DNA from: a virus
Strand: one strand, 5' to 3'
DNA: 35,117 bases
Virus record (IMG/VR): IMGVR_UViG_3300027550_000001
Shown here: positions 1 to 35,117 of the stretch, piece after piece
How positions within the stretch are numbered: the first letter of the stretch is position 1
Layout of the letters: each line of letters opens with the position of its first letter
Position numbers and translations under genes: made by a program
Notes under the pieces: generated by a model
Seen by the model: only the letters and a program-made list of their open reading frames with translations
The model's database searches: none
Told to the model about the DNA's origin: nothing

Positions 1-127
1 CCCCGGATGGGGATTCGCCATCCTTTCCCCTTTTTGTCCCTCTCAGGAAAAAGCCGGACGGTAGCTGAGCCTTGGTCAACGCAGCCCCGGTCAGATCCGT
101 GTTTTCAAGGTTGGCCTTGGTCAGGTC
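1..127. repeat. Terminal direct repeat, copy 1 (identical to 34991..35117)
   Basis: Base-by-base comparison shows 1..127 equals 34991..35117. About 70 nt of the repeat is non-repetitive sequence (ccccggatggggattcgccatcctttcccctttttgtccctctcaggaaaaagccggacggtagctgagcc), so the match is not just pentapeptide-repeat self-similarity. Confidence 0.95.
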
Positions 128-748
128 GGCCTCGGTGAGGTAAGCATCGGCCAAGACCGCCCAGGTCAAGTTCGCCCAGGTCAGGGTTGCCCGGGTCAGG
201 TCCGCCTCGGTCAAGTTTGCCTCGATCAAAGTTGCCTCGGTCAGGTTGGCCTTGATCAGATCCGTGTTTTCAAGGTTGGCCTTGGTCAGGTCGGCCCCGG
301 TCAGGAAGGCCCCGGTCAGGAAGGCCCCGGTCAAGTTTGCCCCGGTCAAGTTCGACCAGGCTAGATCCACCTTGGGCAGGTCGGCCCCGGTCAGGTCGGC
401 CTCGGCCAAGATCGCCTGGGTCAAGGTCGCCCCGCTCAGGTAAGCCTCGGTCAAGATCGCCCCGGTCAGGTTGGCCTTGCTCAGATCCGTGTTTTCAAGG
501 TTGGCCTTGGTGAGATTCGCTCCGGTCAGGTCGGCCCCGTTCAGGTTCGCCCCGTTCAGGTAAGCCTGGGTCAAGGTTGCCCCGGTCAAGTTTGTCCCGC
601 TCAGGTCAGCGTCGGTCAGGTCAGCGTCGGTCAGGTCAGCGTCGGTCAGGTCAGCGTCGGTCAGGTCAGCATCGGTCAGGTCTACCTTGGTCAGATCCTT
701 TCCTTTCAGGTTGGCATCTCTGAGGTTGGTCTTGTCGAGTTCTGTCAT
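1..748 (-). CDS. Pentapeptide-repeat protein A (PRP-A); 5' part of a gene that crosses the window join
   Basis: Absent from the ORF track because it runs off the edge. Manual minus-strand translation from ATG (748..746) gives MTELDKTNLRDANLKGKDLTKVDLTDADLTDADLTDADLTDADLTDADLSG... and ends ...TEADLTKANLENTDLTGAALTKAQLPSGFFLRGTKRGKDGESPSG at nt 2. I translated 748..661 and 136..1 in full and spot-checked the middle for in-frame stops, finding none. The frame continues through 34990 to TAG at 34973..34971, giving about 255 aa on a circular map. Confidence 0.85.
   Translation of the reverse strand, partial: MTELDKTNLRDANLKGKDLTKVDLTDADLTDADLTDADLTDADLTDADLSGTNLTGATLTQAYLNGANLNGADLTGANLTKANLENTDLSKANLTGAILTEAYLSGATLTQAILAEADLTGADLPKVDLAWSNLTGANLTGAFLTGAFLTGADLTKANLENTDLIKANLTEATLIEANLTEADLTRATLTWANLTWAVLADAYLTEADLTKANLENTDLTGAALTKAQLPSGFFLRGTKRGKDGESPSG
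601..675. repeat. Perfect 15-bp tandem repeat (tcaggtcagcgtcgg x4, plus one 1-mismatch unit) inside PRP-A
   Basis: Units start at 601, 616, 631 and 646 and are identical. The unit at 661 has a G>A change. The array encodes (DLTDA)x5 on the minus strand. Confidence 0.95.
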
Positions 749-811
749 TTCTTTTCTCTCTTTGGTTGTTGGCGGCTTCCCTGCCGGTCTCTGCTCCCTG
801 ACTATGGGTAC

Positions 812-839
812 ATGATACCATGTGTTTTCGATCTGTCAA
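812..839 (-). promoter_or_regulatory. Sigma70-type promoter for PRP-A
   Basis: The reverse complement reads TTGACA-gatcgaaaacacatgg-TATCAT: 16-nt spacer and a TGn extended -10. It lies about 65 nt upstream of the ATG at 748. Confidence 0.6.
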
Positions 840-996
840 CGCTTTTTTGCAGCTTTTAGCTACCGAATGCGAATAGCGCACGGAGGAGGTATTCCCATCG
901 GCCAGGCCAGGGCACGGAGCAAAATTTGTTGACAAAACAAAACAACAAAGTAATCTATATCCACGCTTTCGAAATAACCCAAATAAAGAAAAGAAA

Positions 997-1080
997 ATGA
1001 AAAATCCCGTATTCGAAGTTGTGAGCGTGGCCACATCCATAATGTGGCGACTGGAGACTCGCGCTAGATGGAATTCGCCC
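997..1080 (+). pseudogene. Inverted N-terminal remnant of the small-protein family (paralog of 1505..1774)
   Basis: MKNPVFEVVSVATSIMWRLETRARW matches MKNPIREVVNLVSSIMWYLETHSRW of the minus-strand gene at 1774. After about 28 codons the similarity is lost and the ORF tail is Arg-rich junk (RHRGTRSQSRF...). Confidence 0.45.
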
Positions 1081-1207
1081 CCTCATCTCCGACATAGAGG
1101 AACCCGATCTCAATCAAGGTTTGTAGATTTTCAGCGCCGAAGTCATTTCCCTTTTCGGTGTATACCTGGCGGAAGTCGCCTTCGGCGCTGAGTGCTTTTT
1201 CAGCCAT
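1064..1207 (-). CDS. Small hypothetical protein (47 aa)
   Basis: Manual translation: MAEKALSAEGDFRQVYTEKGNDFGAENLQTLIEIGFLYVGDEGANSI*. GAGGG lies 8 nt upstream of the ATG. It is below the ORF-track size cut-off. Its 3' end collides with the remnant at 997..1080. Confidence 0.35.
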   Translation of the reverse strand: MAEKALSAEGDFRQVYTEKGNDFGAENLQTLIEIGFLYVGDEGANSI

Positions 1208-1913: not shown

Positions 1914-2183
1914 ATGAATGTACCCAAGCTGAATTGGTCGGGCGCAGGCGATGTATTAAGAGATTTACGCCTACAATATGGACATTCTGCGGCGGATGCT
2001 AGCCGACACCTTGGAATTTTGCCTGTTTACGTATCTCGCCTCGAAAGCGGGAAGCGGCAAGTTTGCTTAAACGTACTCCACATATATTCTAAAAAATACA
2101 ATATTCCTATGTCAGTGCTCTTGGATAGGATTATAGACCGTCTGGGGTTGGACCCCTTACTGTCACGTCAGAGCCAGCGATAG
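1914..2183 (+). CDS. XRE/Cro-CI family helix-turn-helix regulator (89 aa)
   Basis: LRDLRLQYGHSAADASRHLGILPVYVSRLESGKRQVCLNVLHIYSKKYNIPMSVLL is a typical HTH_3 pattern. The gene is divergent from the 1774 operon. Confidence 0.8.
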   Translation: MNVPKLNWSGAGDVLRDLRLQYGHSAADASRHLGILPVYVSRLESGKRQVCLNVLHIYSKKYNIPMSVLLDRIIDRLGLDPLLSRQSQR

Positions 2184-2802: not shown

Positions 2803-3339
2803 TTAACGCTGATCGGCCAACGAAAGCCAGTTTTTTTTGGTGCATTCTCTCACGCTTCTTTCGCTTTTAGAGAATGACCCCTTCCCCTTCTGAACAGCCC
2901 ACAAAGCTAGCAATGCCGCCTCAGCAATTCCATTATTAGCCATAATAGACCATTTGAAAATATCGTCAGCCCCGAAAGATTGAGACGCAAAATTCAAACT
3001 CTCACGTTTATTGCTTCCAATCCTAAAAAAGGATTTCCATGTTCGGGGATGAACCCAAAGAGTAGGAACCTGCATTAATTGTGAAATAGCTGCCAGGATA
3101 CCCATATTTAATCCCGAAGAAAACGTGGCCACTGAACTTTGTCCGGGCATAGGAATACCCTTTTCAATAACAAACAAATCTGGGTTCTGAGTCAGACAAA
3201 AAGTAGAAACTTCATTAGCATTAATTATCTTTTTTCCTGCCAATATAGAAGTTGGAATTCGCTTTGCTCTCCATAATTTCATACCATCCAATACAGCAAT
3301 TCCTCCTGTTATGCCCGGATCAATGCCAATTGTTATCAT
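2803..3339 (-). CDS. RuvC-like Holliday-junction resolvase
   Basis: The N-terminus MITIGIDPGITGGIAVLDG is the RuvC-fold motif. A second acidic motif follows in LFVIEKG, and the C-terminus has NNGIAEAALLALWA. Confidence 0.75.
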   Translation of the reverse strand: MITIGIDPGITGGIAVLDGMKLWRAKRIPTSILAGKKIINANEVSTFCLTQNPDLFVIEKGIPMPGQSSVATFSSGLNMGILAAISQLMQVPTLWVHPRTWKSFFRIGSNKRESLNFASQSFGADDIFKWSIMANNGIAEAALLALWAVQKGKGSFSKSERSVRECTKKNWLSLADQR

Positions 3340-3560
3340 TTCTGCGCCTCATTTTCTCCGGTTAATTCCTTAATCCCCACATCAAAAGTCATGCTCAACA
3401 ATCGAAGTGAGATATGAGTGGGGATATGACTGTTATTCTCGAATGACACAAGAACAGATGGAAGAATGCCAGATACTTCTGACAAATCATCTATAGTCAT
3501 ATTACGCTCATCTCTAAGGGAGCGCAATCGTTGCGGGAATTGCGGATACTTATTTTCCAT
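3336..3560 (-). CDS. XRE-family HTH regulator (74 aa)
   Basis: LRSLRDERNMTIDDLSEVSGILPSVLVSFENNSHIPTHISLRLLSMTFDVGIKELTG. A 4-nt overlap with the resolvase gene. Confidence 0.8.
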   Translation of the reverse strand: MENKYPQFPQRLRSLRDERNMTIDDLSEVSGILPSVLVSFENNSHIPTHISLRLLSMTFDVGIKELTGENEAQK

Positions 3561-3591: not shown

Positions 3592-3855
3592 TTAAGAAAT
3601 GTGCTTACCTGTATCAGATAGAATATTATCAGGTAAAGGATTTCTGTATATGTCATCAATTGATACTTTAAGGATGCGTGCCAAATTTTGAAGAGTATAA
3701 AGTGAAGGGAGTCTTTCACCCGACTCAAACCGTTGAATAACCCACAAATGTAACCCCGCTTTTCTTGCCAGTTCAAATTGGGTTAATCCTCTTTCCTTCC
3801 GAAGGGTTTTTAACTTAAATGGAAAATCATCATCTTTTGGTAAGTAATACATCAT
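3592..3855 (-). CDS. XRE-family HTH regulator (87 aa)
   Basis: LKTLRKERGLTQFELARKAGLHLWVIQRFESGERLPSLYTLQNLARILKVSIDDIY. Confidence 0.8.
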   Translation of the reverse strand: MMYYLPKDDDFPFKLKTLRKERGLTQFELARKAGLHLWVIQRFESGERLPSLYTLQNLARILKVSIDDIYRNPLPDNILSDTGKHIS

Positions 3856-9316: not shown

Positions 9317-10354
9317 ATGACTAAATTGTTTGTACCCACGTTAGAAATAACGTGGGTTGCATTATCGGTGGGCTTATTTATTTGGGTGGTCGGTGGTTTT
9401 TTCTATGGGTTGGAAGGGGAGAGAAAAAAAATGGGGAAAAACCCCGAACCGCCCAAGACGGAGACATCGGCGTTTTTGGCGCGCCAGCGTTTGCTAATGG
9501 GACATTCTGCTGAGAATGGAAAAGAGGAGAGAAAAGAGGAGGGAAAAGAGGAGGGGAACGAAGGAATCCCTCCGGTAAAAGTTGCATCATTAAAAAAGGA
9601 AAGAAATAAACAGCCCCTACCTGACCCTCGCGATGAACACCAGGGACGTCCCAAAAACGGTGATAGTCACTTTCAGCCTCTAAAGTCGTCAGCTAGGCAT
9701 CAGGTTAAAGAAGCTTCTAACGAGCCAATCTCTCGCTCTTTAGCGCCCATCGGACCCGAAGATCAGAGGGAACCCAGTGGCCGTCCGGATTCTGGGATAG
9801 GGGATGTCTCCTTTGCCAAACCTAATGATGAACCTTCGTCAGAGGGACCCTTAGGAGAAGATGCCAGTCTGGAGGTCTCAAGTCAAGTAAAAAATAAACT
9901 CCCCTTACGGTGCAGCCAATGGACAATTGATCTTATCAAACATTTTGAGGGATTTTCGGCACGACCTTATAAGTGCTCTGCCAATGTGTATACCATCGGA
10001 TATGGCACAACTTACGGAGCGAGTGGCAGACTTATCAATCATGACCATCCGCCGATCAATCGGAGTAGAGCCGAAGAATTATTGATACGAGATATGTATC
10101 ATATAGAACGCGGATTACTGCGGATTGTAAAGGTAAAGTTGAAGCACCACGAATGGGGGGCTTTATGTTCTTTAGCCTATAATATAGGATTGCCACAATT
10201 GGCAGCATCTACGCTTTTGCGGAAATTGAATCGGGGAGAAAAAGAAGAGGCCGCCAATGAATTCCCTCGATGGGTATATGCTGGCCGTACTTTTTTAAAA
10301 GGATTAAAGCGGCGACGCCTGATAGAAAGAAACATGTTTCTGGGGGATGTATGA
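9317..10354 (+). CDS. Endolysin: N-terminal TM anchor, ~190-aa low-complexity linker, GH24 (P22/T4-type) lysozyme domain
   Basis: TM segment ITWVALSVGLFIWVVGGFFYGL. The linker is rich in E/K/P/G (EERKEEGKEEGNEG). The catalytic domain HFEGFSARPYKCSANVYTIGYGTT...EWGALCSLAYNIG...LKRRRLIERNMFLG aligns with P22 gp19 EGERLKAYSDSRGIPTIGVGHT...QYDALCSLIFNIG...RRRRERALFL. Confidence 0.85.
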   Translation: MTKLFVPTLEITWVALSVGLFIWVVGGFFYGLEGERKKMGKNPEPPKTETSAFLARQRLLMGHSAENGKEERKEEGKEEGNEGIPPVKVASLKKERNKQPLPDPRDEHQGRPKNGDSHFQPLKSSARHQVKEASNEPISRSLAPIGPEDQREPSGRPDSGIGDVSFAKPNDEPSSEGPLGEDASLEVSSQVKNKLPLRCSQWTIDLIKHFEGFSARPYKCSANVYTIGYGTTYGASGRLINHDHPPINRSRAEELLIRDMYHIERGLLRIVKVKLKHHEWGALCSLAYNIGLPQLAASTLLRKLNRGEKEEAANEFPRWVYAGRTFLKGLKRRRLIERNMFLGDV

Positions 10355-10695
10355 TGAATACCGGAACTTATATTAGGCTCAGAAGAAAAGAGCGTGGATT
10401 GTCTTTACGCTCATTAGCGGATCAAGCGGAAATGTCGGCGGCTTATCTTTCGGCTATTGAAAGAAATAAAATGCTGCCACCTTCCGTGCGTTTATTAACT
10501 AAAATAGCTAGAGTTTTGGGAATTAACCCAGATTCATTAATAATTATGGCTGGGAAATTGCCGCCTGATGTGGAAGTGCTGATAAAAAGATTCCCATTTG
10601 AAATATGCGATATAATTAGATATGTAGGTGGTTTGACATCGGATGAAAGGGCCCATTTAATAAATGATATTATTGAAAACAAAAATGCGGTTTGA
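10351..10695 (+). CDS. XRE-family HTH regulator (114 aa from ATG 10351)
   Basis: IRLRRKERGLSLRSLADQAEMSAAYLSAIERNKMLPPSVRLLTKIARVLGINPDSLIIMAG. The ATG at 10351 overlaps the lysozyme stop (ATGA). The ORF-track start at 10270 lies inside the lysozyme gene. Confidence 0.8.
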   Translation: MMNTGTYIRLRRKERGLSLRSLADQAEMSAAYLSAIERNKMLPPSVRLLTKIARVLGINPDSLIIMAGKLPPDVEVLIKRFPFEICDIIRYVGGLTSDERAHLINDIIENKNAV

Positions 10696-29255: not shown

Positions 29256-30785
29256 ATGCCACGCGATGCAACTGGAGTTTTTACTAGGTCAGTATCCTCT
29301 TATCAATCTGGGGCGATTATTTCTTCGGAAGAAGTGAATCAGGAAATGGATGATATAGCCACTGCGCTTACACAATCATTAAATACTTCGGGGACTGCCA
29401 GAATAAACGCCGATATAAGTATGCAAGATGCCTCAGCGAATAATCATAGGCATACAAATGTTGCTGCAGGTAATAATCGCAATCATTATGCCGACGTGGG
29501 GAGCGTGCAAGATAACCGTTATCACTTATTAAGTGGCGTTTTAGTTTCAGGAACAACTCTAACAGCAGTTACAAACCCCATTATTCCTGCATATGTAAAT
29601 GGACAAATATTTATTTTTAATTCCCCCGCCAATACCAGTAGGGTTACGCATATTAATTTAAACACAAAAGGCCTCAAACCAATCATCGGCAAAATCGCGC
29701 CATCAAGCGCGCACGCAGCATTCTATTATGACCCAAACTTCTATATTATGCCATTAACTTCGGGTGTTGTTTTCCCATCCGGCGTTGTTGATAATGATTT
29801 ATTGGCCTATGTAAACGGAACATTAGCAGCGAAAAAAATAGGTACCGATATTCAAGCATTCAGCACTATATTAGCCAGCATCACAACTAATGCAACCGCG
29901 AGTAATGCTAAGAAATTACTAAAATATAGTGCGGCAGCCCCGTATAATTTAGAAGTGATAGGTGGGGCAGCTGAAGGTAAAGTATTGATGTATTCATCAA
30001 ATGATGTTGTATGGGGCTCTCCCTTAGGATCTTTTGACGTTCAAACAATTAAAAGCATAGCGGGAGGGGTTACTTGGAATAGACCTTCTAATTTTAAAGC
30101 CATCAAAGTCACTTTGGTAGGCGGAGGCGGAGGCGCAGGCGGCACACCAGTTGCAGATACGAGGGGTAATGGACGGTTCGGATTTAGTGGAGGCGGTGGG
30201 GAAAGTGTTATAGCATATATCCCATCGAGTCTTATATCTGGCAATTTAACCGTAATTATAGGAAGAGGCGGAAATGGAGGTGGGCTCCCACCGTCCCAAA
30301 GCAGCGAGGGGGCGGATGGCACCGCAGGAGGGGCTACACAATTAAAACATTCTAATACAATATTATTGTCGGCAGCTGGCGGCGCAGGAGGAGGTCAAGA
30401 ACGAAGGATCAGCCCGAGAACGGAGCCAGCGTGGTACGGGTTCCAATTGGGGGGGGCTGGTGGGGAAACAACTACCACCGCTGGTAAAGGCACACTTTCA
30501 AATAAAGAAATAATAAGAATACCAGGAGAAGCCGGTCAACCTACGTTACGCCTTGATAGCGACGATCAATTGATTTTTACAGCGCGTGGTGGAGATACCA
30601 TATTTAAAGGTGGTGCAAAACCGCGCGAGGGGACACGAACCGTGAGTTCCCAACGGCAGGACATAAATGGGAATCATGGAATATCAAATACAGGAGGGGG
30701 AGGCGGCGGTTCATTTTCGAATACAACGACGGGCGCGCGCGGAGGGAATGGAGCCTCCGGTATTGCAATCATAGAAACTTACTAG
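29256..30785 (+). CDS. Tail fibre protein with a C-terminal glycine-rich domain
   Basis: The N-terminus MPRDATGVFTRSVSSYQSGAIISSEEVNQEMDDIATALTQSLNTSG is the common tail-fibre N-terminal pattern. The C-terminus has VTLVGGGGGAGG, GGGGESV, GRGGNGGG and TGGGGGGS blocks. It is the last gene of the late operon. Confidence 0.7.
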   Translation: MPRDATGVFTRSVSSYQSGAIISSEEVNQEMDDIATALTQSLNTSGTARINADISMQDASANNHRHTNVAAGNNRNHYADVGSVQDNRYHLLSGVLVSGTTLTAVTNPIIPAYVNGQIFIFNSPANTSRVTHINLNTKGLKPIIGKIAPSSAHAAFYYDPNFYIMPLTSGVVFPSGVVDNDLLAYVNGTLAAKKIGTDIQAFSTILASITTNATASNAKKLLKYSAAAPYNLEVIGGAAEGKVLMYSSNDVVWGSPLGSFDVQTIKSIAGGVTWNRPSNFKAIKVTLVGGGGGAGGTPVADTRGNGRFGFSGGGGESVIAYIPSSLISGNLTVIIGRGGNGGGLPPSQSSEGADGTAGGATQLKHSNTILLSAAGGAGGGQERRISPRTEPAWYGFQLGGAGGETTTTAGKGTLSNKEIIRIPGEAGQPTLRLDSDDQLIFTARGGDTIFKGGAKPREGTRTVSSQRQDINGNHGISNTGGGGGGSFSNTTTGARGGNGASGIAIIETY

Positions 30786-30788
30786 AAT

Positions 30789-30864
30789 TGGTGGGCCATC
30801 GGGGATTCGAACCCCGGACCAAGGGATTATGAGTCCCACGCTCTAACCGCTAAGCTAACGGCCC
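30789..30864 (-). tRNA. tRNA with CAU anticodon (elongator Met, or Ile2 if lysidine-modified); CCA encoded
   Basis: Reverse complement: GGGCCGT TA GCTT AGCGGTTA GAGC G TGGGA CTCATAA TCCCT TGGTC CGGGG TTCGAAT CCCCG ATGGCCC A CCA. It folds as a full 76-nt cloverleaf with a 7-bp acceptor stem (one G-U pair), a 4-bp D stem, a 5-bp T stem and a TTCGAAT loop. The G1-C72 pair argues against an initiator. Confidence 0.9.
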
Positions 30865-30910
30865 GTTGGCGACAGATAATGCCCTAAAAGAAGAATCCCT
30901 CTGGAGGATA

Positions 30911-31041
30911 GAAAGAGTGGCATCTCGGATTTCAGGTCCTTGGATAGACAGCGGTTAGCCCGGAGTCCCCGAAACCTCTAACTTTCCATCCCCTAAAGGG
31001 ATGCTGGGAATATAGTGGGTTCATGAATAAATGTCAATCCC
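30911..31041. repeat. Promoter-leader module, copy B (paralog of 3923..4047)
   Basis: See copy A. In this copy the palindrome is degraded, but the -35/-10 and the ...gaaatccgaga.gc.ac..ctttc leader block are kept. Confidence 0.8.
31009..31037 (-). promoter_or_regulatory. Sigma70-type promoter upstream of the tRNA
   Basis: The reverse complement reads TTGACA-tttattcatgaacccac-TATATT with a 17-nt spacer. It lies about 135 nt upstream of the tRNA 5' end. Confidence 0.65.
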
Positions 31042-31051
31042 CGCCGACGGA

Positions 31052-31423
31052 TCAGATGTGCTGATCTTTCGAAATGCCGAAAGCCCATGCCTTTAGCATC
31101 CCGTCGAGGCATTCATTAGTTGCATCATAGATAGACGGAAGATCGCTTTTTTCTAATAAATCTTCTGCGTTTATTTCATTTATTGCCAGATTAACCAATG
31201 CTTGACACATGGGATCATTGTATAAAACCTTCTGAAAAATACTCTCCATAACTGCAAAAGCAATCTCTGCGTAATGATCTTCCCTTTGCGGCTCCAAAGC
31301 ATTTTCATAAGCAAATTGTTTGAGCCGATCTAAGGTCATTTTGAAGATTTTCTCTACACGCTCATGACCGATAGTAATGGTGTTTTCGGACAGAACATCA
31401 AGGACTCTGGAATTACCGGACAT
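31052..31423 (-). CDS. Hypothetical protein (123 aa from ATG 31423; ORF track extends to 31453)
   Basis: ORF track. GAGG lies 8 nt upstream of the ATG at 31423 (MSGNSRV...). No motif recognised. Confidence 0.55.
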   Translation of the reverse strand: MSGNSRVLDVLSENTITIGHERVEKIFKMTLDRLKQFAYENALEPQREDHYAEIAFAVMESIFQKVLYNDPMCQALVNLAINEINAEDLLEKSDLPSIYDATNECLDGMLKAWAFGISKDQHI

Positions 31424-31476
31424 TTCGATTACCTCTTGGTGTGGATAGCGCATCCTTGTGCTATATCGTGGAGTTA

Positions 31477-31806
31477 CTATTCCTTATCGGACTTTTCAAA
31501 GGGTTGCCATTTCCGAAGGTGGATGGCTTGGGCGAATAGAAACCCTCCTAGTCTCATTTCCGCTTCTGACTTACTCAAGGCAAGTATTCTACTTGCGTCA
31601 TCATCCCTACAGATGTGTTTTACAGCGTTACGCGCAAGAGCACTCATTATCCCTGGATGGCCATCTAATCGACTGAGACCATCTAGAATCACATCTGAAA
31701 GACCTTCTATGAACGCATCATGAATGATGTTTCCATCAATAAGAACAGATACGAATTCATGGATTTCTCGCCGTAAGACGGTTTCTCTTTGTTTCGTGAG
31801 GTGCAT
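31477..31806 (-). CDS. Hypothetical protein (109 aa)
   Basis: ORF track. AGGAGGG lies just upstream of the ATG. Confidence 0.6.
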   Translation of the reverse strand: MHLTKQRETVLRREIHEFVSVLIDGNIIHDAFIEGLSDVILDGLSRLDGHPGIMSALARNAVKHICRDDDASRILALSKSEAEMRLGGFLFAQAIHLRKWQPFEKSDKE

Positions 31807-31841
31807 TTTCCCTCCTAGGGTTTTTCACGCGCATGGGTTCT

Positions 31842-31871
31842 TTGACAGAAATTTCCCGAAAATGATATGAT
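31842..31871 (+). promoter_or_regulatory. Sigma70-type promoter with extended -10
   Basis: TTGACA (31842..31847), 18-nt spacer ending in TGa, then TATGAT (31866..31871). Confidence 0.55.
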
Positions 31872-31902
31872 GCAAACGCATCAAACAACAGGAGTATATC
31901 TC

Positions 31903-32256
31903 ATGAATTTTTCCGAAACCCTACCCGAATTATCGCCTGAGGTCCGCCAATCTATTCTAGCGGCCACCGAATCCATTTTGAAAGAATGGATTGTGGATTT
32001 CGCTACGGTGGATTTCGACGGCGACTTATCTCATGCGGTTGACAAACATACTAGCCATCTTCGCAAATGCGTAGATTCTTTCGAGAGCCAATCGGCGTTC
32101 TTAAAGGCAATGGAAGAATGGATTACGTCCCCGGATTATCCGAAAGATCTGGTAGACTTCAAAACGGCACTAGCTGCTTACGCAAAAAGGGAAATCTCGG
32201 CAGCGCTAGTAAAGAGTTTCGAGGATTTGTTGATGAAGCATCTGTGTAGTAAATAA
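31903..32256 (+). CDS. Hypothetical protein (117 aa from ATG 31903)
   Basis: The ORF-track ATG at 31867 lies inside the predicted -10. The ATG at 31903 has AGGAG 8 nt upstream. Confidence 0.6.
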   Translation: MNFSETLPELSPEVRQSILAATESILKEWIVDFATVDFDGDLSHAVDKHTSHLRKCVDSFESQSAFLKAMEEWITSPDYPKDLVDFKTALAAYAKREISAALVKSFEDLLMKHLCSK

Positions 32257-32274
32257 CCGCCAGCTGGCGGTTAT
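32253..32274 (+). terminator. Perfect 22-nt palindrome at the end of the gene (terminator-like hairpin)
   Basis: ATAACCGCCAG|CTGGCGGTTAT overlaps the TAA stop. The tail is cctttc, only weakly T-rich. Confidence 0.45.
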
Positions 32275-32282
32275 CCTTTCAG

Positions 32283-32320
32283 TTGAGCAGGTTCACCTTT
32301 CAGAAAGTGAATCTGCTCAA
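32283..32320. terminator. Second hairpin between convergent genes
   Basis: TTGAGCAGgTTCAC-ctttcagaaa-GTGAAtCTGCTCAA. There is no U-tract in either direction. Confidence 0.35.
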
Positions 32321-32348
32321 AAGTTCCCTAATTTCCGTAACCGTCTTT

Positions 32349-32936
32349 CTAATGCCGCGTGGTGCTCTTCCTCGCCAAACCAAGGTTTTCTAGAAACCAG
32401 CGTATTAGGGTTTTGGAATCACACTTCCAATATTCATCTGGTTTCACCTCTATAAGCCCAGCGTTGGCTAAGCAATCCAGCGTAGATATGTAGTCCAATT
32501 GGTCGGCTTCGGCCCATGACATGATCCATTTATCATGTCTTACTATATGGTATAGAATATGCCGAAGGACAGGGCAATCCAGCTTAGACATGTCGTCCAA
32601 TTGGTCGGCTTCAGCCCATGACATGATCCATTTATCATGTCTTACTATATGGTATAGAATATGCCGCAAGAATGGCTCTAAATCATAAGTTTGCTCCCCA
32701 CAGTTATCGCGCGCGCCATACGTATTCATGTCGACAAATGCGTTCGATTTCATGTATTCATCGATTAATGGACGTAAGATCATACCCGCTTGCAGGATGC
32801 TTTGAGTGGCGCGCAAGTATTTATCCTTGGTTTTTACATCGAGATATGCCCAACCTGCGAAATCTTTATTAGATAGTGCATAGATTACCATCTCGTCGAG
32901 CGTGTCGTTGGGGGTCATGTTCTGATCTCTCTTCAT
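32349..32936 (-). CDS. W..W..aGLI family protein with an internal 34-aa duplication (about 195 aa; start uncertain: TTG 32951, ATG 32936 or ATG 32918)
   Basis: LRHILYHIVRHDKWIMSWAEADQLD occurs twice. The C-terminus DYISTLDCLANAGLIEVKPDEYWKCDSKTLIRWFLENL aligns with the 1266..1774 paralogs. Confidence 0.7.
   Translation of the reverse strand: MKRDQNMTPNDTLDEMVIYALSNKDFAGWAYLDVKTKDKYLRATQSILQAGMILRPLIDEYMKSNAFVDMNTYGARDNCGEQTYDLEPFLRHILYHIVRHDKWIMSWAEADQLDDMSKLDCPVLRHILYHIVRHDKWIMSWAEADQLDYISTLDCLANAGLIEVKPDEYWKCDSKTLIRWFLENLGLARKSTTRH
32472..32666. repeat. In-frame tandem duplication: two 93-bp copies with a 102-bp period
   Basis: 32472..32564 and 32574..32666 differ at 4 positions (G/T, T/C, A/C, G/A). 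The period is 102 bp, equal to 34 codons. Confidence 0.95.
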
Positions 32937-32987
32937 TAGTTGTCTTCTCAATTGATGGACACATCATATCTGCAAGCTTGCAGGATG

Positions 32988-33440
32988 TCAAGGACATTTT
33001 GCAGATTTTAGCACTACCGAATGCGGATAGCATCCCAGCCATGCGAGGGGAGCCACTCCCTCTTCGGCTGCTAAGGTCTCTGCTATAAATTTGTAAAGGG
33101 CTTTGTTATGTAGGAAATAGGATCTTTCGAGTATGGTATTATATTCTACCATTACTTCCTCCAACGGTAGCTCTTTTAAAGACCATCTAAAATACCTGCA
33201 TTTGTCTATCAATCTATACATCGTAGAGATGATAACGCCGTCCAAAACTTCCTCAACCTCTTCTGAGTATCCGATGGGGTCATCGGGCGCGCGGCGCGCT
33301 GCCGTGAGTTCAACATAGGTATCACTATAGAGTTTTTTTAAAAAGTTAGCTCCTTTGCTTGCGAACTCTTGGTTGGTAAGAGCTGCACTCATGGCTGAGT
33401 GCAGAGTTTCGGAAATTAGGATGTCTTGGCTTTCGTTCAT
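32988..33440 (-). CDS. Hypothetical protein (150 aa)
   Basis: ORF track. 4-nt overlap with the upstream XRE gene. Confidence 0.6.
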   Translation of the reverse strand: MNESQDILISETLHSAMSAALTNQEFASKGANFLKKLYSDTYVELTAARRAPDDPIGYSEEVEEVLDGVIISTMYRLIDKCRYFRWSLKELPLEEVMVEYNTILERSYFLHNKALYKFIAETLAAEEGVAPLAWLGCYPHSVVLKSAKCP

Positions 33441-33661
33441 TGATTCCCGCCGGCGTCCGCCAGATAATCGATTGATACACTAAGCGCAAATGATAGTTTG
33501 CGTAGCGTATGGTATGAAGGAAACCGCTTGTCGTTTTCGTACAGACTAATGGCAGACCGGCTCAGCTTCGCCCTGCGCGCAAGTTCAGCTGAGTTTATAT
33601 TTAGCCGTGATCGCGCATCCTTGATGCGCTGTCCTAAGCCGGTCCTGATTTGTGCCTGCAT
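33437..33661 (-). CDS. XRE-family HTH regulator (74 aa), in an Aca-like position
   Basis: LGQRIKDARSRLNINSAELARRAKLSRSAISLYENDKRFPSYHTLRKLSFALSVSIDYL. It starts immediately after the stop of the upstream small ORF (TAAATG). Confidence 0.8.
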   Translation of the reverse strand: MQAQIRTGLGQRIKDARSRLNINSAELARRAKLSRSAISLYENDKRFPSYHTLRKLSFALSVSIDYLADAGGNQ

Positions 33662-33946
33662 TTAGGGTTCCGTCAATCTGTAGGGTTCAGTCAATCTGTA
33701 GAACAGATCCTCACCGGATATGATCTCACCCAGTATCTCCTTAATAGACTTAAGATCGCGTGGTTTCTTTTTACCTAGCTTTACTAGCTTCTCCGCCAAT
33801 TCTTGCAGGTGGATTTGATCTTCCTTAGTTATGGGATAATGGGTAAGGTGCTTACTAGTTAGATATAAATAAATCTCCTCTGCTATTTCCTCCGAAAACT
33901 CACGGTTGATCTTTCTTGCAACTTTAAGTTCGGAAGCTTTTAACAC
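33662..33946 (-). CDS. Small acidic helical protein (94 aa) with a C-terminal YRLTEP YRLTEP repeat
   Basis: GTG start with AAGGA 8 nt upstream. The 3' end contains an 18-bp tandem repeat (agggttc.gtcaatctgt x2, about 33665..33700). Confidence 0.55.
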   Translation of the reverse strand: MLKASELKVARKINREFSEEIAEEIYLYLTSKHLTHYPITKEDQIHLQELAEKLVKLGKKKPRDLKSIKEILGEIISGEDLFYRLTEPYRLTEP

Positions 33947-33986: not shown

Positions 33987-34934
33987 TCAAATCGTGAGGG
34001 CGCAAGGTAGCCGAGCCTTGGATTGATCAGCGTGGGTCAGGTCAGCCCCGGTCAGGTCAGCCTCGGTCAGGTCAGCCCCGGTCAGATCAGCCCAGGTCAG
34101 GTCAGCCTCGGTCAGGTCGGCCCCGCTCAGGTCGGCCCCGGCCAGGTAAGCCTTGGTCAGGTCGGCCTTGGTCAGGTCGGCCCAGGCCAGGTAAGCCTTG
34201 GTCAGGTTGGCCTTGGTCAGGTTAGCCCCGGTCAGATCAGCCCAGTTCAGGTCAGCCCCGGTCAGGTCGGCCCCGGTCAAGTCTGCGTTGGTCAAGGTTG
34301 CCTGGGTCAAGTTCGACCAGGCTAGATCCACCCCGAGGCAATTTGCCTCGGTCAAGATTGCCTTGGTGAAGTTCGCTCCGGTCAGGTTGGCCTTGGTGAG
34401 GTTCGCTCCGGTCAGGTTTGCCTCGGCCAAGATCGCCTGGGGCAAAGTCGCCTCGCTCGGGTAAACCTCGATCAAGATCGCCTCGGTCAGGTTTTCCTGG
34501 GCCAGGTTCGCCTCGGTCAGGTAAGCCTCGGTCAAGATCGCCCCGGTCAGGTTTGCCTGGGCCAGGTTCGCCCCGGTCAGGTTTGCCCCGGTCAGGTTTG
34601 CCTGGGCCAGGTTCGCCCCGGTCAGGTTTGCCTGGGCCAGGTTCGCCTCGGTCAGGTCGGCCTTGGTGAGGTTCGCTCCGGTCAGGTCCTTTCCTTTCAG
34701 GTTGCCCCCAGTCAGGAAGGCCCCGGTCAAGTTTGCCCCGGTCAAGGTTGCCTCGGTCAGGTCGGCCCCGGTCAAGTCTGCGTTGGTCAAATCCGCGTTG
34801 GTCAGGTCAGCCCAGGTCATGTGTGCCCAGGGCAGGTCGGCTCCGGTCAGGTCGGCCCAGGTCGGATTCGCCTCGGTCAGATCCTTTCCTTTTAGGCAGG
34901 CGTCTCTGGGCTTGGTCTTGTCGAGTTTTGTCAT
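33987..34934 (-). CDS. Pentapeptide-repeat protein B (PRP-B, 315 aa)
   Basis: ORF track. MTKLDKTKPRDACLKGKDLTEANPTWADLTGADL... continues as nearly uninterrupted A(D/N)LT(G/E/K/Q) pentads. The N-terminus and about 40 nt of 5' UTR are paralogous to PRP-A. Confidence 0.9.
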   Translation of the reverse strand: MTKLDKTKPRDACLKGKDLTEANPTWADLTGADLPWAHMTWADLTNADLTNADLTGADLTEATLTGANLTGAFLTGGNLKGKDLTGANLTKADLTEANLAQANLTGANLAQANLTGANLTGANLAQANLTGAILTEAYLTEANLAQENLTEAILIEVYPSEATLPQAILAEANLTGANLTKANLTGANFTKAILTEANCLGVDLAWSNLTQATLTNADLTGADLTGADLNWADLTGANLTKANLTKAYLAWADLTKADLTKAYLAGADLSGADLTEADLTWADLTGADLTEADLTGADLTHADQSKARLPCALTI

Positions 34935-34970: not shown

Positions 34971-35117
34971 CTATATCGCCACCCCGGTCCCCCCGGATGG
35001 GGATTCGCCATCCTTTCCCCTTTTTGTCCCTCTCAGGAAAAAGCCGGACGGTAGCTGAGCCTTGGTCAACGCAGCCCCGGTCAGATCCGTGTTTTCAAGG
35101 TTGGCCTTGGTCAGGTC
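34971..35117 (-). CDS. 3' end of PRP-A (34991..35117 duplicates 1..127)
   Basis: Manual minus-strand translation ends ...KDGESPSGGTGVAI* with TAG at 34973..34971, in frame with the ATG at 748 once position 1 is equated with 34991. Confidence 0.8.
   Translation of the reverse strand, partial: DLTKANLENTDLTGAALTKAQLPSGFFLRGTKRGKDGESPSGGTGVAI
34991..35117. repeat. Terminal direct repeat, copy 2 (identical to 1..127)
   Basis: See copy 1. Confidence 0.95.

What the first reader, a model, noticed from the sequence alone, without database searches (positions are those of the whole stretch)
31052..33946. Accessory arm resembles an anti-defence island, with a small ORF plus HTH pair arranged like an Acr-Aca operon
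Downstream of the two PRP genes the same strand encodes four genes with almost no intergenic space. These are a 94-aa acidic helical protein (33946..33662), an immediately following 74-aa XRE HTH (33661..33437), a 150-aa ORFan and the duplicated W..W..aGLI protein. A convergent 117-aa gene and two further ORFans (31806..31052) complete the arm. None has a recognisable housekeeping phage function. A small unknown protein directly followed by a small HTH autoregulator under a strong promoter is the hallmark arrangement of anti-CRISPR and other anti-defence operons. A toxin-antitoxin reading (unknown toxin plus XRE antitoxin) is the main alternative.
Basis: inference. Interest (0 to 1): 0.65.

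Follow-up and report, generated by a model that had tools for sequence, protein, structure and literature searches.

The report
Mosaic phage accessory operon, not proven anti-defence
The small gene plus DNA-binding regulator pair sits inside a longer operon of orphan genes in a new phage, and the two genes were joined by recent recombination, so nothing here shows that they are an anti-CRISPR or toxin-antitoxin unit.

Summary
Three details are wrong. The 94-aa protein is neutral (pI 6.8), not acidic. The pair has no strong promoter of its own. The pairing is not conserved.

The window is a circular 34,990-bp phage genome with a P22-like portal. The arm is the distal part of a leftward operon: a conserved strong sigma-70-type promoter (839..812), then PRP1, PRP2, ORF94, HTH and ORF150. 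A separately promoted 195-aa gene follows, then terminator hairpins, a convergent 117-aa gene, two more ORFans and tRNA-Met.

Apart from the HTH, the ORFs match no family in Pfam, PHROGs, NCBIfam or PADLOC. None is found in 50,697 phage records or 72,556 plasmids. An exhaustive search of 1.84 billion protein representatives, run for ORF94 only, gave one true relative.

That relative lies on a 16.6-kb metagenomic mobile element carrying the same cassettes in a different order. There ORF94 follows a ParB-type HTH, and the XRE homolog is 2 kb away. Both ends of the window's ORF94 are recombination joints, and its dN/dS is about 1, against about 0.3 for its neighbours.

The genome carries five XRE HTH genes, so a small ORF next to an HTH is expected by chance. 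The operon-level Acr-Aca and toxin-antitoxin criteria I could test were mostly not met. An anti-defence function is neither supported nor excluded.

The parts
812..839 (-). Conserved strong sigma-70-type promoter (TTGACA-16-TGgTATCAT) upstream of PRP1, the likely promoter of the PRP1-PRP2-ORF94-HTH-ORF150 transcript. The palindrome ACATG-N4-CATGT (810-823) overlaps the -10.
   Evidence: 11/12 match with an extended -10, and a unique 39-mer; five further copies on the related contig, each in front of a gene cassette; the palindrome is unique in the window.
1..748 (-). PRP1, a pentapeptide-repeat protein. This is its 5' part; the gene wraps across the circular junction and ends at 34971.
   Evidence: translations; exact 127-bp terminal overlap, so the genome is circular.
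34971..35117 (-). 3' end of PRP1. Positions 34991-35117 duplicate 1-127.
33987..34934 (-). PRP2, a 315-aa pentapeptide-repeat protein.
   Evidence: Pfam Pentapeptide 7e-105.
33662..33946 (-). ORF94: an orphan, neutral protein with a GTG start, predicted helical at low confidence. Its Shine-Dalgarno (SD) site, start codon and first 5 codons are homologous to the start of a ParB-HTH gene on the related element.
   Evidence: one true homolog, P0001, at 84% identity; the 5' recombination joint; dN/dS 0.96.
33663..33698 (.). 18-bp tandem duplication that encodes YRLTEP-YRLTEP at the 3' end of ORF94. It marks the 3' recombination joint with the HTH cassette.
   Evidence: repeat D5; the duplication is absent in P0001/L003.
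33437..33661 (-). 74-aa XRE/Cro-CI-type HTH regulator, basic (pI 10.6) and translationally coupled on both sides.
   Evidence: HTH_19 9e-14. PDB best hits are the ImmR-like Xre of ICEBs1, P22 C2 and 434 cI. RstR and DicA, both below cut-off; dN/dS 0.29; the closest paralog is the phage's own HTH at 3592-3855.
32988..33440 (-). ORF150: an orphan whose only relative is a 120-aa protein on the related element (56% identity).
   Evidence: dN/dS 0.27.
32963..32991 (-). Separate strong promoter of the 195-aa gene (TTGACA-17-TATGAT). It has the palindrome CTGCAAGCTTGCAG in the spacer and TGATG-N4-CATCA (32953-32966) at the -10/TSS.
32349..32936 (-). ORF195 (200 aa from the TTG at 32951). It holds two or three W..W..aGLI domains, which may be winged-helix-like. 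Paralogs are the 96-aa (1505-1795) and 80-aa (1266-1508) genes.
   Evidence: AF2 pLDDT 69; the top PDB hits are nearly all winged-helix domains and the named viral hits are mostly DNA-binding proteins, but E>=0.1 throughout.
32472..32671 (.). 102-bp (34-codon) tandem duplication inside ORF195, at 94% identity.
   Evidence: repeat D3.
32253..32320 (.). Two hairpins between the convergent genes (32283-32320 and 32253-32274), likely terminators of the leftward and rightward transcripts.
   Evidence: terminator-like site. (inverted repeat I6).
31842..31883 (+). Strong promoter of the 117-aa gene (TTGACA-18-TGaTATGAT). The palindrome TGATGC-N4-GCATCA (31868-31883) overlaps the -10/TSS.
31903..32256 (+). 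ORF117, a convergent orphan (pI 5.0).
31477..31806 (-). ORF109, an orphan. It contains a third TGATG-N4-CATCA site (31725-31738).
31052..31453 (-). ORF133 (123 aa from the ATG at 31423), an orphan.
30789..31037 (-). Promoter-like site (31037..31009), a 139-nt structured leader, and tRNA-Met (30864..30789).

Best explanation
The region is the distal half of a mosaic accessory operon, probably expressed early, in a previously undescribed phage with a circular 34,990-bp genome and a P22-like portal. The host is possibly a cyanobacterium.

Shown:
- One conserved, near-consensus sigma-70 promoter upstream of PRP1 is the only strong promoter in front of PRP1-PRP2-ORF94-HTH-ORF150.
- These genes are tightly packed or translationally coupled, and no terminator lies between them.
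- ORF195 has its own strong promoter.
- Hairpins separate it from the convergent ORF117.
- The same cassettes (ORF94, XRE HTH, ORF150, the W..W..GLL protein, an 89-aa HTH, a PRP 5' end, and the promoter itself) occur in a different order on one other mobile element.
- The window's ORF94 is flanked by two recombination joints.

Inferred:
- The 74-aa protein is a Cro/CI-type dimeric repressor, one of five in the genome, that tunes phage promoters. It may shut off the strong promoter of its own transcript.
- ORF94, ORF150 and the other ORFans are exchangeable cargo acting on the host or on competing elements. Their specific activity is not yet assignable.
- The ORF94-HTH adjacency is an accident of cassette shuffling rather than a co-evolved two-gene unit.
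For: Genome context:
- The genome is circular.
- It encodes phage structural and replication genes.

Operon structure:
- Promoters and terminators map as described.
- Gene spacing was read from the sequence.
- Six promoter copies each precede a cassette.

The related element (L003):
- The gene order is shuffled: ORF150 homolog, ParB-HTH, ORF94 homolog, and about 2 kb further on the XRE homolog.
- The 5' joint shows that the SD site and GTG start of the window's ORF94 correspond to the start of the L003 ParB-HTH gene, and about 320 bp are missing in the window.
- An 18-bp duplication marks the 3' joint.
- The HTH and ORF150 homology blocks abut exactly at 33440/33441.

Selection and identity:
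- The HTH is under purifying selection (dN/dS 0.29), whereas ORF94 is at 0.96. This is significant at P about 0.02 if omega is 0.28.
- The HTH is a member of the XRE family and is most similar to phage and ICE repressors.
- The genome has five XRE HTH genes.
- The ORFans have no homologs in family libraries, phages or plasmids. ORF94 alone was also searched against 1.84 billion representatives.
Against: - There are no transcript data, so the transcription unit rests on consensus scans.
- No operator has been assigned to the 74-aa HTH. The palindrome over the -10 of the shared promoter is perfect in only 3 of 6 copies.
- Early timing is inferred only from position and promoter type.
- Only one related element exists, so n=2 for every comparative statement.
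- In both elements ORF94 is translationally coupled to a small HTH gene of one type or the other. An ORF150 homolog also lies within one gene of it, and this could reflect a real functional trio.
- The word-indexed homology searches missed known relatives. The exhaustive search was run only for ORF94.
Confidence: 0.55

Rival explanations
1. This is a genuine Acr-Aca-type anti-defence operon. ORF94, and perhaps ORF150 or the PRPs, would inhibit a host defence system, and the XRE HTH would be the Aca-like autorepressor of the operon's strong promoter.
For: - A small orphan gene lies directly upstream of a small HTH on the same strand.
- The transcript starts at a very strong promoter with a palindrome over the -10, which is the situation in which Aca repressors are needed (PMC6765145, PMC9410906).
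- The HTH homolog sits behind different cargo on the second element.
- ORF94 evolves at dN/dS of about 1, as arms-race proteins can.
- On both elements ORF94 is coupled to a small HTH, and an ORF150 homolog lies within one gene of it.
- PRPs are known DNA mimics (established knowledge for the Qnr and MfpA proteins).
Against: - There is no similarity to any anti-defence family in Pfam or PHROGs.
- None of the 46 PDB chains found at E<=10 is named Aca.
- There is no promoter or inverted repeat directly upstream of ORF94.
- The run includes genes of more than 200 aa, so the AcaFinder short-gene-operon rule fails (PMC9765179).
- The adjacency is not conserved and was made by a deletion and a junction.
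- With five XRE genes in one genome, the pattern is expected by chance.
- The high dN/dS may equally reflect relaxed constraint or the very low divergence (dS 0.075).
Confidence: 0.15
2. ORF94 is a decaying or function-less fusion remnant. It would be an open frame left by the deletion that removed a ParB-type HTH gene, still translated from the borrowed start site but no longer under selection.
For: - Its SD site, GTG start and first 5 codons come from another gene.
- Its 3' end carries a fresh 18-bp duplication.
- It shows 4 synonymous against 14 non-synonymous changes, dN/dS 0.96.
- It has only one relative among 1.84 billion representatives.
- The structure model has low confidence.
Against: - The 86-codon core is intact and free of indels in both elements.
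- It is translationally coupled to neighbours in both.
- The 18 substitutions are too few to separate neutrality from diversifying selection.
Confidence: 0.15
3. This is a type II toxin-antitoxin module. The XRE HTH would be the antitoxin, and either ORF94 (upstream) or ORF150 (downstream, with a 4-nt overlap) would be the toxin.
For: - XRE antitoxins such as HipB, MqsA and PezA give weak, sub-threshold matches.
- The ATGA overlap between the HTH and ORF150 is typical of TA pairs.
Against: - Neither ORF hits a toxin family.
- There is no autonomous promoter or operator.
- On the related element, neither ORF is adjacent to the XRE homolog.
- The ORF150 family is absent from genomes of 185,579 species and from 72,556 plasmids. 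ORF94 has only one relative. TA families are normally widespread.
- ORF150 is acidic (pI 5.0).
Confidence: 0.04
4. The arm is mainly a regulatory module. The XRE HTH and the W..W..aGLI proteins (winged-helix-like) would be DNA-binding factors controlling phage development, and the TGATG-N4-CATCA palindromes would be their operators.
For: - The palindrome is enriched, with 3 sites against 0.05 expected, plus one N6 variant. Two of these sites lie on the -10/TSS of the arm's two convergent strong promoters.
- Nearly all top PDB Foldseek hits of the W..W..aGLI domain model are winged-helix DNA-binding domains.
- Three paralogs are present in the genome.
Against: - The Foldseek hits are not significant (E>=0.1) and the model is marginal (pLDDT 69).
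- The palindrome is absent from the related element, which carries the HTH homolog.
- ORF94, ORF150, ORF117, ORF109 and ORF123 show no DNA-binding signature.
Confidence: 0.1

Closest known systems
acr-aca operons (for example acrIF-aca1 of Pseudomonas Mu-like phages and acr-aca2 of Pectobacterium phage ZF40; PMC6765145, PMC9410906, PMC9765179)
   Same: - Small orphan gene(s) lie directly upstream of a small HTH gene on the same strand.
- The transcript starts at a very strong promoter.
- The HTH gene travels with different cargo on different mobile elements.
   Different: - No Acr or Aca homology was detected.
- No promoter or inverted-repeat operator lies immediately upstream of the small gene.
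- The HTH sits in the middle of a five-gene transcript led by two large PRP genes.
- The adjacency is not conserved.
- The host and its defence systems are unknown.
Mosaic early or accessory ('moron'-like) gene cassettes of tailed phages, exchanged at gene boundaries
   Same: - Cassettes are shared with another element at very different divergence (73-93% nucleotide identity) and in a different order.
- Joints fall exactly at gene boundaries.
- A repeated promoter precedes the cassettes.
- The genes are orphans, placed between the tail-fibre and replication modules next to a tRNA.
   Different: - The same roughly 40-nt promoter plus 5' UTR is reused six times across two elements.
- The lifestyle is unknown, because no integrase was found among the ORFs scanned (the late-region ORFs were not all scanned).
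Cro/CI-type XRE repressors of phages and ICEs (434 cI, P22 C2, ICEBs1 ImmR, CTXphi RstR) and R-M controller C proteins
   Same: - A single five-helix HTH_3/HTH_19 domain of about 70 aa.
- The best sequence matches are to these proteins.
- It is under purifying selection.
   Different: - There is no C-terminal dimerisation or peptidase domain.
- All NCBIfam scores are below the family cut-offs.
- The operator is unknown.
- It is not placed at a divergent switch region.
XRE-antitoxin type II TA systems (HipBA, MqsRA, PezAT)
   Same: A small XRE HTH overlaps a neighbouring gene by 4 nt.
   Different: - No toxin family is present.
- The pair is not autonomous.
- The pair is not conserved.
- Neither family was found in bacterial plasmids, and the ORF150 family was not found in bacterial genomes.

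Membership tests
acr-aca operon | A small HTH gene (<150 aa) is co-directional with, and within 250 bp of, small genes (<200 aa) that form a self-contained short-gene operon (AcaFinder rule, PMC9765179). | tested here: inconclusive
   ORF94, HTH, ORF150 and ORF195 meet the size, strand and spacing limits. However, the co-directional run continues after only a 40-nt gap into PRP2 (315 aa) and PRP1 (about 255 aa), and no strong promoter separates them.
acr-aca operon | At least one gene is homologous to a known or predicted Acr or other anti-defence protein. | tested here: not met
   No significant hit in Pfam, PHROGs or NCBIfam. No match in 50,697 phage records. The dbAcr, dbAPIS and PaCRISPR resources were not available.
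acr-aca operon | The HTH protein belongs to a described Aca family. | tested here: inconclusive
   The best PDB hits are ImmR-like Xre, P22 C2, 434 cI and SinR. No chain named Aca appears among the 46 hits at E<=10. AcaHMMdb was not available.
acr-aca operon | A dedicated strong promoter with inverted-repeat operator(s) lies directly upstream of the acr gene and is bound by Aca. | tested here: not met
   The 40-bp gap upstream of ORF94 holds only a 9/12 promoter-like match and no palindrome. The strong promoter with a palindrome is 2.1 kb upstream, before PRP1. Binding was not testable.
acr-aca operon | The aca homolog recurs next to varied small cargo genes on other mobile elements. | tested here: inconclusive
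   The one homolog (88% aa identity) follows an 80-aa W..W..GLL gene on L003, not the ORF94 homolog. With n=2 this fits an Aca-like marker or plain mosaicism equally well.
acr-aca operon | Inhibition of a CRISPR-Cas or other defence system. | not testable with these tools
   This needs an experiment, and the host is unknown.
type II toxin-antitoxin (XRE antitoxin) | An autonomous, autoregulated two-gene operon. | tested here: not met
   The pair is embedded in a longer transcript and has no promoter or operator of its own.
type II toxin-antitoxin (XRE antitoxin) | The partner belongs to a toxin family, and the pair is conserved and widespread. | tested here: not met
   No toxin domain was found. 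The partners are not adjacent to the XRE homolog on L003. The ORF150 family is absent from genomes of 185,579 species and from plasmids. ORF94 has only one relative.
XRE / Cro-CI HTH (Pfam HTH_3, HTH_19) | The domain scores above the Pfam gathering threshold over its full length. | tested here: met
   HTH_19 scores 51.6 bits (cut-off 30.2) and HTH_3 scores 41.2 bits (cut-off 23), covering residues 10-68.
Winged-helix DNA-binding domain (for the W..W..aGLI repeats of ORF195 and its paralogs) | An H1-b1-H2-H3-b2-b3 fold with significant structural or profile similarity. | tested here: inconclusive
   The AF2 model has pLDDT 69 and topology H-b-H-b-b-H. Nearly all top PDB hits are winged-helix domains, but E>=0.19 and TM is 0.45-0.52. 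Pfam DUF3572 scores 23.9 bits, below its cut-off of 25.
Pentapeptide-repeat proteins (upstream genes of the same transcript) | Tandem A(D/N)LXX pentapeptide repeats above the Pfam threshold. | tested here: met
   PRP2 matches Pfam Pentapeptide at 7e-105 in 11 stretches. The PRP1 translation shows the same repeats.

The most novel reading that the evidence does not exclude
ORF94, a small HTH and ORF150 may form a portable three-gene conflict module of cyanobacterial mobile elements. In this module the regulator is interchangeable (XRE here, ParB-type on the other element) and the ORF94 effector evolves fast. That would make it a new Acr-Aca-like anti-defence family, co-transcribed with DNA-mimicking pentapeptide-repeat proteins from a reusable strong promoter.
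Probability: 0.12. Interest if true: 0.6.

Novelty: new member of a known kind. Interest (0 to 1): 0.3.

Why it matters
If the cargo genes do act against host defences, they would be entry points into the little-studied counter-defence repertoire of phages of (probably) cyanobacteria. The reused promoter cassette would then be a handle for finding more such genes.

As it stands, the value is mostly cautionary. A small ORF next to an HTH is not evidence for an Acr-Aca or TA unit in a genome that carries five XRE genes, especially where comparison with a relative shows the adjacency to be a recombination accident.

The locus is also a clean, datable example of cassette shuffling between a phage and another mobile element. 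The joints fall exactly at gene boundaries.

Tried and rejected
- **Ig-repeat hit.** The exhaustive phmmer search gave a second hit, P0004 (E 2.3e-9). It is a metazoan protein built of Ig repeats. The score is a sum over near-identical repeats of about 27 bits each, and the match spans beta-strand Ig segments, whereas ORF94 is predicted all-helical. I rejected it as spurious.
- **DUF3572.** The match to ORF195 (E 4.8e-5) is below the gathering score and is inflated by the internal duplication, so I did not use it.
- **Word-indexed searches.** The searches for the HTH and ORF150 returned only the queries themselves and missed the known L003 homologs. These negatives carry little weight.
- **ORF94 model.** The AF2 model has pLDDT 52, so I ran no fold search on it.
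- **Promoter scans.** The pattern found no copy in IMG/VR and only the L003 contig in JGI metagenomes.
- **Genome scans.** The ORF150 family gave nothing in genome contigs. The HTH family gave only hits of 50% identity or less, in Lactobacillus and a Polyangiaceae MAG. The host is therefore not identified this way.
- **Operator test.** I tested TGATG-N4-CATCA as a candidate operator of the 74-aa HTH. It is absent from L003/L013, which carry the HTH homolog, so the link is rejected.
- **Sample accessions.** A literature search found no paper naming the samples.
- **PRPs in the literature.** A search for phage PRPs as anti-defence factors found nothing useful.

Full report
**What the window is.**
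- The first and last 127 bases are identical, so the window is a circular assembly of 34,990 bp.
- It matches ENA contig ERZ27247848:k141_467734 over the 16.3 kb fetched. One block is 100% identical, and the other is 99.6% with no mismatch and a single gap at the assembly overlap. A Logan contig from SRR5273629 is 100% identical over its 1.65 kb.
- It is a tailed phage. It encodes a Prim-Pol/AAA_25 replicase, a RuvC-like resolvase, a PD-(D/E)XK nuclease, an endolysin, a large terminase, a 734-aa P22-type portal, a major head protein and a Gly-rich tail fibre.
- It is far from every deposited phage. No megablast match was found, and the portal is at most 27% identical to any record.
- No integrase was found among the ORFs scanned. 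The late-region ORFs were not all scanned.

**Check of the observation.**
- Packing is tight. The gap from PRP2 to ORF94 is 40 nt. ORF94 and the HTH meet at TAAATG with no gap. The HTH and ORF150 overlap in ATGA. ORF150 and ORF195 are 36-51 nt apart.
- The 74-aa protein is an XRE HTH above Pfam thresholds (HTH_19 9e-14).
- ORF195 carries a 102-bp in-frame tandem duplication at 94% identity. It has two paralogs of its W..W..aGLI domain elsewhere on the same strand, at 1505-1795 and 1266-1508.
- Three details are wrong. ORF94 is neutral, not acidic: pI 6.84 with 17 acidic and 17 basic residues. Its helical nature rests on a low-confidence model (pLDDT 52). And no strong promoter lies at the pair.

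**Transcription layout.**
- Consensus scans find four 11/12 sigma-70-type promoters in or leading into the arm.
- The first, at 839..812 (-), is TTGACA-16-TGgTATCAT upstream of PRP1.
- The second, at 32991..32963 (-), lies inside the end of ORF150 and drives ORF195.
- The third, at 31842..31871 (+), drives ORF117.
- The fourth, at 31037..31009 (-), lies ahead of a structured leader and tRNA-Met.
- The 40-bp gap before ORF94 has only a 9/12 match and no palindrome.
- PRP1 starts at 748 and wraps across the circular junction to 34971. PRP2 follows 36 nt later.
- No terminator-like site separates PRP1, PRP2, ORF94, the HTH and ORF150.
- Two hairpins (32283-32320 and 32253-32274) lie between ORF195 and the convergent ORF117.
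- The pair therefore sits in the middle of a five-gene transcript led by two large pentapeptide-repeat genes. This is inferred from sequence, since there are no RNA data.

**Homology.**
- ORF94, ORF150, ORF195, ORF117, ORF109 and ORF123 have no significant match in Pfam, PHROGs, PADLOC or NCBIfam.
- ORF94 and ORF150 also have no match in PDB sequences.
- A concatenated tblastn of eight arm proteins found nothing in 50,697 phage records or 72,556 plasmids.
- Their 90%-identity clusters contain only copies of this phage.
- An exhaustive phmmer search with ORF94 against 1.84 billion representatives gave one true relative, P0001 (84% identity). It also gave a spurious metazoan Ig-repeat protein.
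- The HTH is most like the ICEBs1 ImmR-type Xre, P22 C2, 434 cI and SinR in the PDB. In NCBIfam it is most like RstR and DicA, both below cut-off. None of the 46 PDB hits at E<=10 is named Aca.
- Its closest paralog is the phage's own HTH at 3592-3855 (39% identity).
- The genome has five XRE HTH genes: 1914-2183 (+), 3336-3560 (-), 3592-3855 (-), 10270-10695 (+) and 33437-33661 (-).

**The one related element.** P0001 lies on JGI contig Ga0209049_1000110 (16.6 kb; loci L003 and L013). Shorter copies occur in two other samples.
- This element carries an AAA_25 helicase, a CI-like HTH, an SNF2 helicase, an M78 peptidase, a short PRP, a SocA/Panacea protein and a ParA.
- The best plasmid match of the ParA is to Nostoc flagelliforme (53% identity over the full length). 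Together with the PRPs, this is a weak hint of a cyanobacterial host.
- It shares seven blocks with the window at very different divergence:
  - ORF94 at 93% nucleotide identity.
  - The XRE HTH at 92%.
  - The 89-aa HTH at 91%.
  - ORF150 at 73%.
  - The 80-aa W..W..GLL gene at 74%.
  - A 47/79-aa gene at 88%.
  - The promoter with its 5' UTR at 84-94%.
- The order differs. On L003 it runs: promoter, 61 aa, 68 aa, ORF150 homolog, ParB-type HTH (84 aa), ORF94 homolog, 184 aa. After a second promoter copy it continues: 79 aa, 80 aa, XRE homolog, then a third promoter copy.
- The ORF94/XRE adjacency is therefore not conserved.

**The joints.**
- The window bases 33972-33928 hold the SD site, the GTG and the first five codons of ORF94. 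They are 87% identical to the SD site and start of the L003 ParB-HTH gene.
- Similarity then jumps to codon 27 of the L003 ORF94 homolog. Relative to L003, about 320 bp are therefore missing, and the jump is in frame.
- At the 3' end an 18-bp tandem duplication (YRLTEP-YRLTEP), absent from L003, precedes the stop codon and the HTH start.
- The HTH and ORF150 homology blocks abut exactly at 33440/33441.
- These are the signatures of cassette shuffling at gene boundaries.

**Selection.**
- I made Nei-Gojobori counts between the two elements.

| Gene | dN/dS |
|---|---|
| XRE HTH | 0.29 |
| 89-aa HTH | 0.28 |
| ORF150 | 0.27 |
| 80-aa gene | 0.35 |
| ORF94 | 0.96 (4 synonymous, 14 non-synonymous) |

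- If ORF94 had omega 0.28, the chance of seeing four or fewer synonymous changes is 0.017. A Fisher test against the two similarly diverged HTH genes gives P=0.054.
- This fits diversifying selection or relaxed constraint equally well. The low divergence (dS 0.075) also inflates dN/dS.

**The repeated promoter.**
- A roughly 40-nt core, GTTGACAGATCGAAAAYACATGGTATCATGTACCCATAG, occurs once in the window and five times on the related contig. Each copy stands in front of a cassette.
- It was not found in IMG/VR.
- Three cassettes each contain one small HTH: the window's operon from the promoter at 839..812, and the L003 cassettes behind the promoter copies at about 3290 and 6140.
- That fits negative feedback on a strong promoter. 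But the HTHs belong to different families, and the palindrome ACATG-N4-CATGT over the -10 is perfect in only three of six copies. No regulator can be assigned.

**A second motif.**
- TGATG-N4-CATCA occurs three times in the window against 0.05 expected. A variant, TGATGC-N4-GCATCA, occurs once.
- Two of these four sites lie on the -10/TSS of the two convergent strong promoters, those of ORF195 and ORF117.
- The motif is absent from L003/L013, which carry the HTH homolog but not ORF195 or ORF117.
- It is therefore more likely the operator of a window-specific factor. ORF195 is a candidate. Its C-terminal domain model (pLDDT 69) gives top PDB hits that are nearly all winged-helix DNA-binding domains, but none is significant.

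**Comparison with known systems.**
- Measured against the operational acr-aca rules of AcaFinder (PMC9765179) and the promoter/inverted-repeat logic of Aca1, Aca2 and Aca10 (PMC6765145, PMC9410906), the locus meets only the trivial features: small genes, same strand, and an HTH.
- It fails or is inconclusive on Acr homology, Aca family membership, a dedicated promoter with operator, and self-containment.
- The TA reading fails on toxin homology, autonomy, conservation and distribution.
- The best description is a mosaic accessory operon with a Cro/CI-type regulator and orphan cargo.
- An anti-defence function of the cargo remains possible. I put it at about 0.15. The recurrence of ORF94, a small HTH and ORF150 together on both elements is the one observation that keeps it alive.

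**Verdict.** The locus is a new member of a known kind, and its interest is modest (0.3).

Noticed in passing
window 29986-29999, 31725-31738, 32953-32966, 31868-31883: The palindrome TGATG-N4-CATCA occurs 3 times (0.05 expected), and one TGATGC-N4-GCATCA variant is also present. All lie within 3 kb. Two sit on the -10/TSS of the convergent strong promoters of ORF195 and ORF117. This looks like the operator set of an unidentified regulator.
   Followed up: partly
window 802-840 (-); L003 363-400 (-), 3274, 6119, 7182, 14378: A roughly 40-nt near-consensus promoter, with a conserved 5' UTR in the closest copies, is reused six times across two mobile elements, each time in front of a gene cassette. 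It was not found in IMG/VR, and in JGI metagenomes it occurs only on that one contig.
   Followed up: yes
window 993-1082 and 1689-1778: A 90-nt inverted repeat (78% complementary). The left arm is an inverted partial copy of the 5' end of the 96-aa W..W..GLL gene, which suggests a past inversion or rearrangement around the 96/80/47-aa cassette.
   Followed up: partly
window 30865-31037 (-): A strong promoter-like site (TTGACA-17-TATATT) is followed by a 139-nt leader that folds into a long hairpin (MFE -49 kcal/mol, z about -2.0), directly upstream of tRNA-Met. There is no Rfam match.
   Followed up: partly
window 1-748 plus 34971-35117, and 33987-34934: Two tandem paralogous pentapeptide-repeat genes (GC 63% in a genome of about 42% GC) lead the transcript. 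Their 5' UTR and first codons are shared with a 77-aa mini-PRP on the related element.
   Followed up: partly
L013 8383-10128: On the related element the same promoter drives a 77-aa PRP, then a SocA/Panacea-domain protein, then ParA. The best plasmid hit of the ParA is to Nostoc flagelliforme (53%). This may be a Panacea-type TA next to a partition gene, and it hints at a cyanobacterial host.
   Followed up: partly
L003 about 250-360 (- strand, downstream of the promoter copy at 400): Head-to-tail repeats of about 34 nt (AAATGGATTGGGAGCTACCCGGTCCATGGCCT) follow a promoter copy near the AAA_25 helicase gene. They could be iterons.
   Followed up: no
window 1914-2183, 3336-3560, 3592-3855, 10270-10695, 33437-33661: The 35-kb genome carries five XRE-type HTH genes, an unusually dense set of small regulators. 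No integrase was found among the ORFs scanned.
   Followed up: partly
window 32988-33440 against 32349-32936: The N-terminal 48 residues of ORF150 weakly resemble the N-terminus of ORF195 (29% identity, E 0.02 in a 25-protein database). The two may share an N-terminal module.
   Followed up: no
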